Notes: a model not told the origin generated them from the sequence alone. 64,000 bases of DNA from an uncultured virus (IMG/VR IMGVR_UViG_2802429268_000001) (IMGVR_UViG_2802429268_000001); one strand, 5' to 3'. Shown: positions 22,732 through 58,834, counted from the stretch's first letter. Numbers and translations: made by a program.

Positions 22732-23360
22732 TGACGCCAGAGGAAATCGAAGAGCTTTTCATAAGAGGCGCGGAGATCGACCGGCGCTTGCCCGACACCG
22801 CCCGCCCGGCACGCCTCAAGGCCCAGGCCATGCCCTATGTCCATGACTTCGACGACATGCTCGGATGGGGAACAGACCGTCTCATCGAAGAACGGCAAGC
22901 CTTCTGGGATGCTAGATCGACGAGGATGCAGACCAAGGACGTGGCGATTTGGGAAGAGTGTATGAACCTGATCGTCCTCGTCAGCAGGGAACGCGACCGG
23001 CGATGCCTCTGGGCCTGGTCGCGATCGAAGGCCGGCGGAATGCCTTTCAATCGCTGGTGCAAGGATATAGAACACATCCATCGGAACTACGGGAATGAGT
23101 GCCGGCGGCGTGCATCGACGGAAATAACGGCCCATCTTCTTCGTAACGCATTGATCGATATACACAATTCAGAAAACAGCGCCTTGCAAGACACCCCGGA
23201 AATCGGCGATAAAAGTGCCAACATCGGAGAGACGCGCACCTACTCATGGATGGCGCCGGACGCCTTCACCAGAGAGATGCAGCCAGAGGCGCAAGACTTC
23301 ACTTGGGCCAATCTCCAGAACGAACGCCGCCGCCAGCGCCAAGCGAGGAAGGCGGCATAG
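22731..23360 (+). CDS. Putative late-gene regulator (Q-like position)
   Basis: Last early gene before the late region; function inferred from position only. Confidence 0.5.
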   Translation: MTPEEIEELFIRGAEIDRRLPDTARPARLKAQAMPYVHDFDDMLGWGTDRLIEERQAFWDARSTRMQTKDVAIWEECMNLIVLVSRERDRRCLWAWSRSKAGGMPFNRWCKDIEHIHRNYGNECRRRASTEITAHLLRNALIDIHNSENSALQDTPEIGDKSANIGETRTYSWMAPDAFTREMQPEAQDFTWANLQNERRRQRQARKAA

Positions 23361-23365
23361 AGATC

Positions 23366-23470
23366 GGGGCCTTTGGCAAGCAGCCAGCAGCGGGGTTGAT
23401 CGCCCGACTTTGATCCTCTTTACAGGGGTCATGAGCGAAAAGGCGCGGGCAGAACGCGCGGGTTCCACCA
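23366..23470 (+). ncRNA. tRNA-like RNA with Ala-type acceptor stem and tmRNA-like T-loop
   Basis: GGGGCCT pairs with GGGTTCC-A-CCA (G3:U70, A73); T-arm GCGCG-GGCAGAA-CGCGC; no canonical anticodon arm. Confidence 0.7.
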
Positions 23471-23542
23471 ATTCGCCACATAGGTGGCAGCAAAGGCGTG
23501 TGGTCCACCAGCCCTCCGAACGTGTGGACATCTGGCCCGGCA

Positions 23543-23595
23543 TTTACGCCTGATGAAGCCGAAAGGCAGAAACGGACTTAGGTTCGTCGCGTGGA
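23543..23595 (+). ncRNA. Type I hammerhead ribozyme
   Basis: TTTACGC-CTGATGA-aGCCgaaaGGCa-GAAA-CGGACttagGTTCG-TC-GCGTGGA. Confidence 0.85.
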
Positions 23596-23743
23596 GTAGC
23601 CCCAGCCGGGGAATAACTGGCTACCTAGGGAGGGCGCCAATTCGCGGCAATGCCTCACCGAGATCGGGAAGCGAGTGCCATAAGGGCCTATCACAGCCGG
23701 TTTCCGGCGTGGTGACGGATCATGCCCCGGCTTCCTGAACCCA

Positions 23744-23817
23744 TACCGGTTAGCTTAGTGGTAAAGCGTCGGTCTCCAAAACCGATTACGTGGGTTCGAT
23801 TCCCGCACCGGGTGCCA
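23744..23817 (+). tRNA. Phage tRNA-Trp(CCA)
   Basis: D-arm GCTTAGTGGTAAAGC, anticodon arm TCGGT-CTCCAAA-ACCGA, T-arm GTGGG-TTCGATT-CCCGC, 3' CCA; acceptor stem imperfect. Confidence 0.85.
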
Positions 23818-24009
23818 ACAAGACCCGCTCCGCCTCTCACAGAAGCGCACCGTTGCGGGTTACTCATCAGGACCGCGGCGGAGTGATGGCAAGTAGCCGA
23901 AGCGGCAGATAGCGGACGCCGGAACTGCGCCGGAAGAAGCAAACACCGCACCTCAGAGGGTATCGGTCCCGTAGGCGAATATACCGGACTGCCCGTCCTG
24001 ACAATCACA

Positions 24010-24043
24010 GCCCGTCTCTGTTCGCAGGGGCGGGTTTTCGTTT
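24010..24043 (+). terminator. Rho-independent terminator
   Basis: GCCCGTCTCTG-ttcg-CAGGGGCGGGT then TTTCGTTT. Confidence 0.75.
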
Positions 24044-43315: not shown

Positions 43316-46300
43316 TGGCGTGGGGGATAGTCGGACAGAGCGGCGTAACGCCATATGGCCCGTTCTATGGCATTGCGACGACCGAACCCGTTGTCACGTC
43401 TTCCGGCGGCACGTCGTCTGGAGAAATCGGCCTGCCGTCTCCGCTGGGCGACAAGATCCCGCAGGGCATCGGCACGTTCCCGGTCTACGGCAAGCTGATC
43501 GTCGACCCCGATCTGCTGGGCGGCGTCACGCAATCCGGCGACACGACCAAGGTCAATCTCGTTCTGGCGTTCTGCGAAACGTCCCTGGGCGGCACGGTGT
43601 CGCTGATCAACCTCAAGGCCAACGACAAGTACATCTATCGCACGGAGACGCCGACCAAGACCTTTCCCGGCACGATCCGCTTCTATGGCGGCGACCAGGC
43701 GGCGCTCGACACGTTGCTCGAGGACAACCTCGATAACCCGACCTATTGGCCGAAACTCGCCTATGCGGTGCTGGAAGGGTTTGATATCGCGCCCTATGGC
43801 AATCAGCTTCCGTCATTCCAGGCAGAGCTTTCGACCGGGGCAAGCTCGAGCGCGCTTTCCAGCGCAGAGGCAACGCTCAATTTCGGCGCGATCCATGATG
43901 GTTCCGGCGGCGATGAAAACGCCATAGACCGGGTCCGCAACCACTTCTACACGTCCGACCTCGATAACTCGACGGGCGACGTCTACATCCTCACCATCGA
44001 TATCCTGACCAATCAGGAGATCAACCGGGCCAAGGTCTCGTGGGCTGGCGGGACGACCGACTACATCGGCTATTGGGTGTCTCTCGACGGCTCGGATTAC
44101 ATCGTCGGCGCCCTGATCGATGACGCGGACAACCTCTATAAACTCGCCCTCATCAACACGGTGACGGGCGTCGTTGATGAAGTCCTGGCCCCGCTCACCA
44201 AGACCGGCACGCCGTTTGAGCCGAATCCGATCCGGGCGCAACTGATCTCGAGCGGAGCGGCGACGAAGTATCTCGTCTATTCGGATGCAATCGGCACGGT
44301 CAGCGACGGCAATTGCCCGCTGATGGTCACAGTAGCCGACATCACCGCCGGCACGCTCACGAACATCGTACACCAGTTCACAAACCCGGTTGCGGCGAGT
44401 GGGTCGGGTGAAATCAGGTCAACATGCCCCGGCCCATCCGTCGATGGCACGGCGATCATGTTTTTCGTTCCGTCCGACGCAGGCGGCGGCGAGGATAACA
44501 ACGTCTGGAAAGCGGTCTTTTCTGAAGCCGGAATCGTCTCCGTTGCCATCGCCCATACCGGCACGGATTGCCGAGACGTCGCCTACGATTGGACCGATGA
44601 CACCATTGTCGTCTACGACGCCACCGGCGCGCTGAAGAAGATCGATAGCCTGGGGTCCACCCTCTACACGGTCGCGACTGGCGTTACCGATCTCCGGATC
44701 AACTATTCGCATTACGAGACGGGCGGCCAGTTCAATTTCAAATGCCGGGACGGGTTCGCGGCCGGCTGCCGGGTCTTCGGCGATGGCGCGGTCTATCTGA
44801 TCGACCTCTCCGACGGCTCCACGTCGTTCATCATCGACGATAGCGACTACATGAGCGGCTACGTCTATTACGACCAGTCGAAGGGCTATCTGACCACGGA
44901 CGCGGTGAACCTGACGTTCTCCGGCATGACGCGCTACACCCTGCCGCTCTCCACGGTTCCCGTCTTCGACCTGCAGACCGTTTACACGAAGCTGGCGGAG
45001 TACCGCGGCAAGTTCTCGTCCTCGGATCTGACCTTCACCAACTTCTCCGGGGGTGAGTGCTACGGCGTCGTCTATGAGAACGACACCACGCTCGACAATG
45101 CCGAGCAGGACGCCAACAACATCTTCGACGTCAAGATCGTCCCCTCCGACGGCAAGCGGAAATACATCAAGGCCAAGCGCGACGGCTCCTTCGCCGTGGA
45201 CGACACCCTTGCATCAACCGATATCGTCGAGCAGGCCGAATTCAACATCCGCAAGACCATGCTCTCGGACGAGCAATCGCTTGTCGGGGCCCGGATCTCC
45301 TACATCGACAAGAACGCCCGGTTCGAAAGGACGGAGCAGGAATACCGCCGGCCGGTCGGCATCTACTCGGTCACCCGCTCCGATCGGGTCGAAGACGTCT
45401 CCACCAACTTCGTCCTGTCGTCCACCCAGGCGATGCAGGCCGTCACGACGAAGGTCTACCGCTCGAATTTCGGGCTTGATCAGTATGCCTTCACGCTGGC
45501 ACCGAGCAATTTCTACAACGAGCCCGCCGATATCGTGCAGTTCGATTTCGAAGGCTTCACCATCGTCGGCCAGATCAACGAGGCGAACCTTTCCGGAGAA
45601 CTGTTCACCCAGGACGTGGTTGTCACCCAATACGTGCAGGCGATCGATGCGGACTTCACCGGCGTCGACCTCAACCTGTCGGACATTACCGACCCGTCAT
45701 GGCTGACGCGGTTTCTGTATCTCGACGCGCCGCTTTTGAGCCTGGGCGATGACCTCGGGGGAACAGCGGTTCGGCAATATGCAATGCTGTCCGGCTATGG
45801 GTATGGCACATTCCAGGGCGCCACACTGTACCGCTCGTACGATGGAAGCTCATACGGGGTGCTGACCTCCCGCTATGGCGTCTCGCCCGTCGTTGGGCGT
45901 CTGGAGGCGATTACGGGTAGCCCTGTGGTTAATCCGGGCACGGACACCGCGTCGAGCCTCACGGTCGCGGTCATCTCGGGCGATACGGCCGACCTCGCCA
46001 GCATTACACAGGCCGAGCTCTACACCGGTCAGAACAAGGCGCTGGTCGGCAAGCCTGGGCGGTGGGTGATCATCTATTTCCAGACTGTTTCCGTCACCGA
46101 CAAGACCGCGACGATTTCCAACATCATCTGGTCGGCTCCGCACTATCAGACGTTCTTGGATGACCTGACGGCCGGGGATTATTTCGTCCTTCTCCAGCCC
46201 GGTCACCATGTCCGGTTCGCGGGCGAGGCCGGGCGGCTCGGCGATAGCGTCTTCTACAAGGCGGCGTCGGATGCCTTCAACATCTCGCAGGTTCCGACCG

Positions 46301-58758: not shown

Positions 58759-58834
<76 letters not shown>

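What the first reader, a model, noticed from the sequence alone, without database searches (positions are those of the whole stretch)
23543..23595. Type I hammerhead ribozyme in the late-transcript leader
Seen: stem I UUUACGC/GCGUGGA, core CUGAUGA, stem II GCC-GAAA-GGC, GAAA, stem III CGGAC/GUUCG, and a GUC cleavage triplet with the cut predicted after 23588. Stem II is closed by an atypical A.A where G10.1-C11.1 is usual. An upstream GGCGUG (about 23495) can pair with stem I 5' (UACGCC), which could form a switch. Established: hammerheads are known in some prophages, but their role there is unclear.
Basis: partly seen in the sequence, partly recalled or inferred. Interest (0 to 1): 0.78.

Follow-up and report, generated by a model that had tools for sequence, protein, structure and literature searches.

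The report
Hammerhead ribozyme inside larger phage RNA
The predicted self-cutting hammerhead RNA is real and conserved, but it is the middle module of a larger, knotted small RNA that no catalogue lists and that phages of at least seven bacterial phyla carry, often beside their tRNA genes.

Summary
The motif at 23543-23595 (+) is exactly as described. It is the only type I hammerhead-shaped site in the window and in the 6.09-Mb genome, with 0 hits in 300 simulated windows.

Rfam does not detect it. The evidence is comparative. In the first set, 35 of 41 distinct related elements carry a hammerhead at the same place, with 27 different stem II and 24 different stem III sequences and an intact core. 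The A.A closing pair recurs in 11 of those 35.

The hammerhead is not free-standing. It sits in the linker of a roughly 145-nt two-domain RNA (23495-23638) held by two covarying long-range pseudoknots. Some relatives lack the hammerhead. E. coli lambdoid prophages (between Q and the holin gene) and a T7-like phage carry a circularly permuted form. Other copies lie inside phage tRNA arrays.

Rfam 15 and seven literature searches gave no description of the larger RNA.

Cleavage itself is untested.

The parts
23495..23503 (+). Conserved 5' strand of domain A (GGCGUGUGG; family consensus N-CGYGG). It can pair with the 5' arm of the hammerhead (23545-50).
   Evidence: (C and G invariant in 50 sequences)
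23503..23529 (+). Hairpin Pa (23503-08 with 23524-29). Its loop carries the 5' strand of pseudoknot PK1 (23511-17, GCCCUCC).
   Evidence: Pa is 99.7% paired, and 5 of 6 pairs change on both sides. for PK1.
23530..23542 (+). Joiner AUCUGG, then the 5' strand of pseudoknot PK2 (23536-41, CCCGGC), then A23542.
   Evidence: PK2 is 100% paired in 50 sequences, with G-C changed to A-U in 3. One search shows a further compensated form (CCCGAC/GUCGGG) in Microcystis phage Mwe-JY26.
23543..23595 (+). Variant type I hammerhead: stem I 23543-49/23589-95, core 23550-56, stem II 23557-68 (A.A at 10.1/11.1), GAA 23569-71, stem III 23572-87, C17 23588. The predicted cut is between 23588 and 23589.
23596..23624 (+). 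Hairpin Pb (23596-23601 with 23619-24). Its 17-nt loop CCAGCCGGGGAAUAACU carries the 3' strand of PK2 (23605-10).
   Evidence: 18-mer identical in 57 viral loci. Pb is 99.7% paired, and 5 of 6 pairs change on both sides.
23625..23638 (+). Joiner CUAG, then the 3' strand of PK1 (23629-35, GGAGGGC), then GCC.
   Evidence: the element's own loop-tail complementarity is 6-10 bp in 60 of 60 elements.
23744..23817 (+). Phage-borne tRNA-Trp(CCA), 105 nt downstream in the same non-coding stretch.
24009..24036 (+). Terminator-like hairpin with a U tract. It closes the non-coding stretch 10 nt before the DNA methylase gene (24046) that precedes the terminase genes.

Best explanation
Bases 23543-23595 encode a variant type I hammerhead ribozyme that most likely cuts its own transcript between C23588 and G23589.

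It is not a free-standing leader element. It fills the linker between the two domains of a roughly 145-nt phage RNA (23495-23638):
- Domain A is a 5' strand, hairpin Pa and a tail.
- Domain B is a 5' strand, hairpin Pb and a tail.
- The loop of each hairpin pairs with the tail of the other domain (PK1 7 bp, PK2 6 bp).

Cutting therefore nicks the RNA between its domains. Domain A keeps the ribozyme core and would end in a 2',3'-cyclic phosphate. Domain B would start with a 5'-hydroxyl at G23589. The two pieces can stay joined through the 13 pseudoknot pairs.

The conserved 5' strand of domain A has nearly the same sequence as the 3' strand of stem I. It can therefore hold the ribozyme's 5' arm before the true partner is transcribed, and again after the cut. 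I read this as a timing or product-release device.

The whole unit behaves as a discrete small-RNA gene, made here together with tRNA-Trp upstream of a terminator and the packaging genes. What the larger RNA does is not known.

Shown: the sequence features, the covariation of all helices, the optional and permuted forms, and the genomic contexts. Inferred: cleavage itself, the switch, and the role of the nick.
For: Hammerhead:
- It is the only descriptor hit in the window and in the genome, with 0 hits in 300 simulated windows.
- 35 of 41 distinct related elements from the first viral scan have a hammerhead at the same place. They show 27 distinct stem II and 24 distinct stem III sequences. 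The core is CUGAUGA in 16, CUGACGA in 15 and CUGAAGA in 3. Phage Gaia has UUGAUAA, the U3/A8 change that Perreault et al. describe as natural covariation (PMC3088659, passage read). N17 is C in 32 and A in 3.
- N1.1/N2.1 covary: GC 22, CG 15, AU 2, UA 1.
- Relatives give sub-threshold Rfam hammerhead hits: L013 RF00163 28.7 bits (cut-off 34), L017 and L044 RF02275 26.5 and 23 bits.

Larger RNA, on 50 elements:
- 92.1% of cells are paired against 71.9% in shuffles.
- The covariation score is 0.465 against 0.132 (0 of 500 shuffles reach it) and 0.056-0.120 for slid partners.
- The pseudoknots were not in the model that made the alignment.
- PK1 own loop-tail runs are 6-10 bp in 60 of 60 elements. 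In cross-pairings, 25.5% reach 6 bp and 4.4% reach 8 bp.

Optional and permuted forms.

Small-RNA gene behaviour:
- tRNAs lie within the fetched flanks in 9 of 46 loci.
- In M. abscessus prophage prophiGD24-3 the element exactly fills the gap between tRNA-Ser and tRNA-Trp. It also lies in the tRNA array of Microcystis phage Mwe-JY26.
- Long flanking closing helices occur in 15 of 50 elements.

Switch.
Against: - No cleavage data exist.
- Rfam's hammerhead models do not score this sequence at all, even on 67 bases at E<=10.
- The 10.1/11.1 position is A.A instead of G-C. Perreault et al. rejected such mispairs by default (PMC3088659, methods passage). From my own recall, G10.1 helps bind a catalytic metal ion.
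- The fold energy of the 53-mer is not unusual (z = -1.43).
- 12 of 50 elements of the same order did not match my hammerhead pattern: 11 lack the ribozyme and L202 has an extra base in the core. The larger RNA therefore does not need the cut.
- One relative (L095) has CUGACUA, which would break the C3-G8 pair.
- Contigs from four RNA libraries run through the site uncut, which fits DNA carry-over or uncleaved RNA and says nothing either way.
- Related sequences are not independent, so the counts overstate the number of evolutionary events.
Confidence: 0.62

Rival explanations
1. It is an mRNA-processing cassette. The main job of the hammerhead would be to cut long phage transcripts, here between the early genes and the methylase/terminase block. 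The knotted domains on either side of the cut would only protect the new RNA ends from nucleases.
For: - In the E. coli prophage the element lies in the late mRNA leader between Q and the holin gene. In the T7-like Enterobacter phage it lies between the capsid and tail-tube genes.
- Several relatives sit between replication genes and HNH/terminase-type genes.
- Perreault et al. proposed transcript processing for prophage hammerheads (PMC3088659, passage read).
- Earlier scan notes propose pseudoknot 'caps' next to phage hammerheads. Those notes are unchecked and concern other sequences.
Against: - Forms without a hammerhead keep the whole double pseudoknot and sit between tRNAs, where there is no mRNA to protect (L012, L015, L060, L199).
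- The loop sequences are conserved to the base across at least seven phyla, which is more than end protection would need.
- In this window a terminator lies between the element and the next gene.
Confidence: 0.22
2. It is an allosteric, riboswitch-like ribozyme. The double-pseudoknot RNA would sense a ligand or a host factor and decide, through the competition between the upstream strand and stem I, whether the hammerhead cuts.
For: - Many strictly conserved unpaired bases (AUCUGG, GGAG, GGGGAAUAACU) are typical of binding pockets.
- The alternative helix is nearly isoenergetic with stem I and is possible in 35 of 38 relatives.
- In several relatives (read: L008, L050, L054) a terminator hairpin and then a ribosome-binding site follow the element directly.
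Against: - Forms without a hammerhead and forms inside tRNA arrays have nothing to regulate in cis.
- Downstream genes share no common function.
- No known riboswitch family matches.
- No ligand is indicated by the gene context.
Confidence: 0.12
3. It is an inactive relic. The hammerhead-shaped insert in this copy would no longer cut, because of the A.A pair, and would serve only as a three-way-junction spacer in a tolerant linker.
For: - A.A at 10.1/11.1 departs from the usual pair, and Rfam models give no score.
- The linker tolerates anything from 1 to 57 nt.
- Some relatives carry core changes expected to be harmful (L095, L202).
Against: - Every catalytic core base is kept here.
- The A.A variant recurs in 11 of 35 relatives with different stem II and III sequences, which indicates selection on a working variant.
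- A mere spacer would not keep 11 core bases, H17 and the A15.1-U16.1 pair.
Confidence: 0.12
4. It is a chance resemblance to the hammerhead consensus in GC-rich intergenic DNA.
For: The fold energy is not exceptional and Rfam does not detect it.
Against: - 0 hits in 300 simulated windows, and it is the single hit in 6.09 Mb.
- It is conserved with compensatory changes in dozens of unrelated phages.
Confidence: 0.01

Closest known systems
Type I hammerhead ribozyme (Rfam RF00163, clan CL00010)
   Same: Three helices around the core C3-A9 / G12-A14, an A15.1-U16.1 pair, C17 as the cleavage-site base, and stems II and III closed by loops with stem I open.
   Different: It has A.A instead of G-C at 10.1/11.1 and gets no score from the Rfam models. 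Stem I runs straight into a pseudoknotted domain rather than ending or carrying the usual internal loop.
Hammerheads of prophages and phages (Perreault et al. 2011, PMC3088659; passages read)
   Same: It lies in a prophage intergenic region. The family shows natural core variation, including U3/A8. Its function there is 'unclear', as those authors say.
   Different: Those are described mostly as type II ribozymes flanking genes. That study rejected 10.1/11.1 mispairs by default. The passages I read mention no enclosing double-pseudoknot RNA; I could not see the PDF supplements.
   Same: I found the permuted form independently in E. coli prophages. There it replaces the top of a hairpin that lambda itself has just after tR'.
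   Different: The window carries the unpermuted order (A, hammerhead, B) without the clamp hairpin. Whether LPR2 comes from that lambda hairpin could not be checked, because the passages give no coordinates.
GOLLD and ROOL RNAs (Weinberg et al. 2017, PMC5737381; passage read)
   Same: They are structured RNAs of unknown function that occur in prophages and next to tRNA genes.
   Different: I recall those as several hundred nucleotides long. They are in Rfam and do not match here. This RNA has a core of about 100 nt with two pseudoknots.
Circularly permuted structured RNAs (the three hammerhead types: PMC3088659; twister ribozymes and two-piece tmRNA: recalled)
   Same: The same fold is encoded in two gene orders (A-HH-B and HH-B-A).
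   Different: Here the permutation concerns a two-domain RNA that carries a ribozyme as a passenger. A tandem copy that could be the intermediate exists (L053).

Membership tests
Hammerhead ribozyme, type I | Three-way junction with stems II and III closed by loops and stem I open | tested here: met
   the minimum-energy fold of the 53-mer is this junction; the stems are kept in relatives.
Hammerhead ribozyme, type I | Catalytic core C3 U4 G5 A6 N7 G8 A9 and G12 A13 A14 | tested here: met
   CUGAUGA at 23550-56 and GAA at 23569-71; the core is kept in 35 of 35 hammerhead-bearing relatives, varying only at N7 and in the paired U3/A8 change.
Hammerhead ribozyme, type I | A15.1-U16.1 pair and a non-G base (H17) before the cut | tested here: met
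   A23572-U23587 and C23588. A-U in 39 of 39 rows with letters. N17 is C in 32 and A in 3.
Hammerhead ribozyme, type I | Watson-Crick pair (usually G-C) at 10.1/11.1 closing stem II | tested here: not met
   A23557 faces A23568. Among relatives the position is G-C 19, A.A 11, U.U 3, G.U 1 and A.G 1 of 35.
Hammerhead ribozyme, type I | Score at or above the curated cut-off of an Rfam hammerhead model | tested here: not met
   There is no hammerhead match at gathering or at E<=10, and none at this site. The best relative is L013 at 28.7 bits against a cut-off of 34.
Hammerhead ribozyme, type I | Compensatory changes in the stems among homologues | tested here: met
   (27 distinct stem II and 24 distinct stem III sequences); changes on both sides in 2 of 4 inner stem I pairs, 2 of 3 stem II pairs and 1 of 3 stem III pairs.
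Hammerhead ribozyme, type I | Tertiary contact between loop II and stem I that gives fast cleavage | tested here: inconclusive
   Loop II is a GNRA tetraloop in 14 of 35 (counted). No covarying partner was found. Stem I abuts Pb/PK2, which may take this role.
Hammerhead ribozyme, type I | Site-specific Mg2+-dependent self-cleavage giving 2',3'-cyclic phosphate and 5'-OH ends | not testable with these tools
   Only assembled contigs of RNA libraries were available, and they cannot show RNA ends.
Any Rfam 15 family, for the larger RNA at 23495-23638 | Match of the domains outside the hammerhead to a curated covariance model | tested here: not met
   No family matches the domains in the window or in 10 relatives, including 6 without a hammerhead, at E<=1.

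The most novel reading that the evidence does not exclude
The roughly 100-nt double-pseudoknot core would be a new class of functional RNA with ribozyme- or riboswitch-grade conservation. It is pseudo-two-fold symmetric: two units of 5' strand, hairpin and tail, each hairpin loop pairing with the other unit's tail. It has spread among phages of Proteobacteria, Actinomycetota, Cyanobacteria, Bacteroidota, Chloroflexota, Gemmatimonadota and Planctomycetota. On this reading it binds a universal host component or small molecule, and it uses a built-in hammerhead, gated by a conserved competing strand, to nick itself at a defined moment.
Probability: 0.35. Interest if true: 0.9.

Novelty: new variant of a known kind. 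Interest (0 to 1): 0.68.

Why it matters
Hammerheads have been known in prophages since 2011, but their purpose there is still open. Here the ribozyme has a defined structural partner. In dozens of unrelated phages it sits at one fixed position of a conserved two-domain RNA, and its 5' arm has two competing partners. That turns 'what are phage hammerheads for?' into a testable question: what does nicking this RNA change?

The enclosing RNA is of interest in its own right:
- An 18-base loop is identical from mycobacteriophages to coliphages.
- Two pseudoknots covary.
- The RNA occurs in natural circularly permuted forms and in forms without the ribozyme.
- It keeps company with tRNA genes.
- It is absent from Rfam 15 and from the papers I could search.

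The work also shows that current hammerhead models miss a recurrent natural variant with a purine-purine or U.U pair at 10.1/11.1.

Cultured phages that carry the element make experiments possible: Mycobacterium phage Gaia, Arthrobacter phages Constance and Karkharias, Enterobacter phage SDFMU_EhYP and Microcystis phage Mwe-JY26.

Tried and rejected
- **Rfam as a test of the hammerhead.** No hit at any setting (RF00163 on the own genome). I treat this as a limit of the models, because relatives score just under the cut-off.
- **RNA evidence.** Four RNA-seq runs of one study hold the stretch, but only as assembled contigs of 1.8-9.1 kb that run through the site in one piece. They show neither cleavage nor transcription. 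DNA carry-over is possible, and they may be the source of this DNA.
- **A constant protein partner.** 57 neighbouring ORFs of 16 relatives were scanned against PHROGs. Most have no family and there is no recurring neighbour. NCBIfam and Pfam give nothing for the 210-aa ORF upstream in the window, so I could not show that it is an antiterminator.
- **Known larger RNAs considered from memory** (HDV-like, twister, pistol, hatchet, tRNA-like structures, SRP Alu domain, Y RNA, several riboswitch classes). None is supported by an Rfam match and the helix topology differs. These comparisons are recall only.
- **A closing helix P1 for the window.** Long flanking helices exist in 15 of 50 relatives, but the window has at most GGC/GCC.
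- **Partners for the conserved single strands** (AUCUGG, GGAG, CCA, GAAUAACU). Inspection found no covarying partner.
- **Other copies.** Model R1 finds one copy in the own genome. Among 100 relatives there are only two 23-24-bit matches, which look spurious on alignment.
- **Second viral scan with the domain-A 15-mer**. By my count about 18 of 74 distinct regions are real elements. The rest are chance matches in coding DNA.
- **Genome scan**. 8 of 24 hits are real.
- **Circular-RNA origin of the permutation.** There is no support. A single hammerhead per copy cannot release a circle, and tandem duplication (L053) explains the permutation more simply.
- **Literature.** Searches found no description of the larger RNA. 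Subscription papers and PDF supplements (for example those of PMC3088659) could not be seen.

Full report
**1. The observation**

- Stem I is UUUACGC (23543-49) with GCGUGGA (23589-95).
- The core CUGAUGA lies at 23550-56.
- Stem II is GCC-GAAA-GGC, flanked by A23557 and A23568.
- GAA lies at 23569-71.
- Stem III is ACGGAC (23572-77) with GUUCGU (23582-87).
- C17 is 23588.

The 53-mer's minimum-energy fold is this three-way junction (-16.0 kcal/mol). The energy is not unusual: z = -1.43, and 19 of 200 shuffles fold as well.

Chance was tested with a descriptor of my own. It finds this site as the only hit on both strands of the window and of the 6,094,027-base genome, provided a mismatch at 10.1/11.1 is allowed. 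With the mismatch forbidden there is no hit in the window. There were no hits in 300 simulated windows.

- The window has only two tRNA matches at gathering scores.
- No hammerhead appears among 7 matches at E<=10 on 23300-23900.
- None appears on 23536-23602 alone.
- None of the 5 weak RF00163 places in the genome is at this site.

**2. Surroundings**

The window holds a prophage. On the + strand the genes run as follows:
- helicase, DNA methylase, a DnaB-like helicase and several unknown genes, the last ending at 23360;
- then 685 non-coding bases;
- then a second methylase (24046), small and large terminase subunits (25261, 25637), portal (27184) and a head morphogenesis gene.

The non-coding stretch holds the hammerhead, a tRNA-Trp(CCA) at 23744-23817 and a terminator-like hairpin at 24009-24036. 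No sigma-70-like promoter was found.

**3. Relatives**

A blastn search of the non-coding stretch against named phages matched 23508-23638 in Mycobacterium phage Gaia and 23547-23632 in the T7-like Enterobacter phage SDFMU_EhYP. The three-way alignment showed that conservation extends well beyond the hammerhead on both sides. In EhYP the upstream block lies downstream instead.

The 18-mer of the most conserved loop occurs in 57 IMG/VR loci, which give 41 distinct elements.

By my count about 18 of the 74 distinct regions printed are real elements, and some carry variant loops.

In one-genome-per-species contigs, 8 of 24 hits are real. They come from Rhizobiales, Bordetella trematum, Actinomycetota, Anaerolineales, Bacteroidetes, Gemmatimonadales, Marinibaculum and Phycisphaerales.

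Named cultured carriers, confirmed with my model R1, are Arthrobacter phage Constance (121.9 bits), M. abscessus prophage prophiGD24-3 (100.8 bits) and Microcystis phage Mwe-JY26 (82.2 bits). Arthrobacter phage Karkharias matched by blastn only.

The window's genome has one copy. None of 100 relatives has a convincing one. The element therefore travels with phages.

**4. The hammerhead in the family**

Of the 41 distinct elements of the first scan, 35 have a hammerhead at the same place and 6 do not. Among the 35:
- There are 27 distinct stem II and 24 distinct stem III sequences, all forming hairpins.
- The core varies only at N7 (U 16, C 15, A 3), apart from Gaia.
- Gaia has UUGAUAA, the paired U3/A8 change that Perreault et al. 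report as natural covariation (PMC3088659, passage read).
- N17 is C in 32 and A in 3.
- Position 10.1/11.1 is G-C in 19, A.A in 11, U.U in 3, G.U in 1 and A.G in 1.

Perreault et al. state that they rejected hits with a mispair at N10.1-N11.1 unless the context prompted a test. That may explain why the curated models do not cover it.

Relatives with G-C give sub-threshold Rfam hits: L013 RF00163 28.7 bits against a cut-off of 34, and L017 and L044 RF02275 26.5 and 23 bits.

**5. The larger RNA**

I aligned 50 distinct elements of the window's gene order, built a covariance model from the nested helices only (R1), realigned the sequences and counted pairs for the full structure including the two pseudoknots.

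Whole-structure measures:

| Measure | Observed | Control |
|---|---|---|
| Cells forming a standard pair | 92.1% | 71.9% in shuffles |
| Covariation score | 0.465 | 0.132 in shuffles (0 of 500 reach it); 0.056-0.120 with partners slid by 1-3 columns |

Per helix:

| Helix | Cells paired | Pairs changed on both sides |
|---|---|---|
| Pa | 99.7% | 5 of 6 |
| Pb | 99.7% | 5 of 6 |
| PK1 | about 81-85% | 7 of 7 |
| PK2 | 100% | 1 of 6 |
| Stem I (inner) | 94% | 2 of 4 |

PK2 has one G-C to A-U exchange in 3 sequences. A further compensated form, CCCGAC/GUCGGG, occurs in the Microcystis phage.

The alignment is fitted to the nested helices, so those counts lean towards the model. The pseudoknots were not in the model.

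An alignment-free check gives the same answer. The longest complementary run between each element's own Pa loop and its own 3' tail is 6-10 bp in 60 of 60 elements, and at least 8 bp in 42. Loops paired with other elements' tails reach 6 bp in 25.5% and 8 bp in 4.4% of 3,486 pairings.

In window coordinates the parts are:
- 5' strand, 23495-23503
- Pa, 23503-08 with 23524-29
- PK1, 23511-17 with 23629-35
- PK2, 23536-41 with 23605-10
- hammerhead, 23543-95
- Pb, 23596-23601 with 23619-24

The architecture is pseudo-symmetric. There are two units of [N-CGYGG strand][hairpin][tail], and the loop of each hairpin pairs with the tail of the other unit.

**6. Optional and permuted forms**

Twelve of the 50 elements did not match my hammerhead pattern. 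Eleven lack the ribozyme: the linker is 1-4 nt in five of them (L009, L015, L099, L146, L203) and a plain hairpin or other insert in the rest. The twelfth, L202, has an extra base in the core.

Ten further distinct elements have the order hammerhead-B-A, closed by an outer stem.

In E. coli, 14 of 5,426 complete genomes hold at least 80% of this form. In strain CFSAN061763 it lies between the Q antiterminator gene and the lambda-family holin gene. Aligned with lambda, it replaces the apical part of a hairpin that lambda has just after tR'.

L053 carries two complete copies in tandem. That is the simple route to a permuted gene.

I reached the E. coli result before reading that note. The preprint it points to describes LPR2 as a roughly 63-nt Hfq-bound RNA of the late operon near the 6S RNA (bioRxiv 10.1101/2024.10.31.621285, passages read). 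It gives no coordinates in those passages, so that link stays unchecked.

**7. Context across the family**

tRNA genes lie within the fetched flanks of 9 of 46 loci. Specific cases:
- The order tRNA-Gly(UCC), element, tRNA-Lys(CUU) recurs in L012, L015 and L199.
- In prophiGD24-3 the element exactly fills the gap between tRNA-Ser and tRNA-Trp(CCA).
- In Mwe-JY26 it sits inside a 14-tRNA array.
- In the window tRNA-Trp(CCA) follows 105 nt downstream.

Fifteen of 50 elements are enclosed by a long helix formed by their flanks, 11-21 bp in L010, L014, L018, L020 and L064. Helices of that kind are what RNase III cuts (my inference).

Neighbouring proteins show no constant partner.

Together these features mark a discrete small-RNA gene that is excised in different ways, not simply an mRNA leader.

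**8. The switch**

The upstream strand (family N-CGYGG-G) and the 3' strand of stem I (N-CGYGG-AG) are near-copies of each other. The base N is the same in both strands in 54 of 60 elements by my pattern match. Four of the six exceptions are mis-parses on inspection, which leaves L055 and L058.

As a result the upstream strand can pair with the ribozyme's 5' arm about as well as the true partner does. This holds in 35 of 38 hammerhead-bearing rows, with 3-9 contiguous pairs; one of the three failures (L098) is a parsing failure.

For the window:
- Nascent RNA ending at 23560 or at 23588 is predicted to form this alternative helix.
- On 23490-23600 the alternative fold scores -25.2 kcal/mol and the hammerhead fold -24.3 kcal/mol.
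- With the whole element (23490-23645) the nested minimum-energy fold contains all three hammerhead stems.

I favour a timing or product-release role. After the cut, the arm can fall back on the upstream strand within the 5' fragment. That would free the new 5' end of domain B and work against re-ligation.

The identity of N also holds in the five minimal forms without a hammerhead. The switch alone does not explain this. It may be a relic of recent ribozyme loss, or it may reflect the pseudo-symmetry of the fold. I leave it unexplained (note 80).

**9. What is known**

Hammerheads in prophages are established, and their role is called unclear (PMC3088659). For the enclosing RNA:
- I found no Rfam family, in the window or in 10 relatives including 6 without the hammerhead.
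- Seven full-text searches gave no description. These included searches for its conserved words as literal strings.
- The passages I read of Weinberg et al. 2017 (PMC5737381) do not mention it.
- Subscription journals and PDF supplements were not visible to me, so 'undescribed' holds only for what I could search.

**10. RNA data**

Four RNA-seq runs of one study contain the stretch, but only as contigs that cross the site in one piece. This shows nothing about cleavage.

**11. Verdict**

The hammerhead reading is well supported by comparative evidence but fails two formal membership tests: the 10.1/11.1 pair and the Rfam score. I therefore file it as a variant that works like a hammerhead.

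The ribozyme is a module of a widespread, permutable, apparently uncatalogued double-pseudoknot phage RNA whose function is open.

Noticed in passing
window 23496 and 23589; family-wide: The base just before the conserved CGYGG is the same in the upstream strand and in the stem I 3' strand in 58 of 60 elements after correcting 4 mis-parses. All four bases occur. The identity also holds in five minimal forms without a hammerhead. It is not explained.
   Followed up: partly
window 23744-23817 and 58759-58834: There are two tRNA-Trp(CCA) genes. The first lies in the prophage, and its outermost two acceptor pairs are marked as non-standard in the Rfam alignment (58 bits). The second looks standard (68.6 bits) and may mark the prophage attachment site.
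   Followed up: no
window about 23466-23494 and 23636-23672; also L021, L027, L042, L046: A repeated motif, CCAAUUCGCC followed by a short hairpin, flanks the element on both sides in the window and in its closest relatives. It could be a processing site or a protein-binding (boxB-like) site.
   Followed up: no
window 23824-23860: A hairpin right after the tRNA gives a weak match to the abiF RNA family (22.8 bits, cut-off 37, E = 0.13).
   Followed up: no
L025 170-310 and 34-143: Y RNA-like (YrlA, RF02553) matches below the cut-off (45.3 and 22.1 bits, cut-off 69) lie directly upstream of an element without a hammerhead in a 150-kb viral contig.
   Followed up: no
L053 (both copies, minus strand 378-525 and 206-346): Two complete elements stand in tandem, each followed by a terminator-like hairpin. 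This is a plausible intermediate for the circularly permuted form.
   Followed up: partly
L095 1380-1525; L202 184-341: These are hammerhead core variants that should impair activity. L095 has CUGACUA (G8 replaced by U). L202 has CUGAAUGAG, with an extra base after A6.
   Followed up: no
L066 (lambda 44400-45300) and L065 2930-3545: Lambda itself has the long outer hairpin just after tR' but with a different apical part. In some E. coli prophages the apex is replaced by the roughly 190-nt hammerhead-B-A element.
   Followed up: partly
L012, L015, L199: The gene order tRNA-Gly(UCC), element, tRNA-Lys(CUU) recurs in three hammerhead-less copies. In the window and in prophiGD24-3 (L215) a tRNA-Trp(CCA) follows the element.
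   Followed up: no
L010, L014, L018, L020, L064 and others: Flanks of 15 of 50 elements form a closing helix, 11-21 bp in the five named here. That is the kind of double strand RNase III cuts. The window lacks it.
   Followed up: partly
L006 2630-2923 (Gaia gene 147); L214 1461-1571 (Constance gene 68): Annotated 'hypothetical protein' genes overlap the RNA element in two named phages and may be mis-calls.
   Followed up: no
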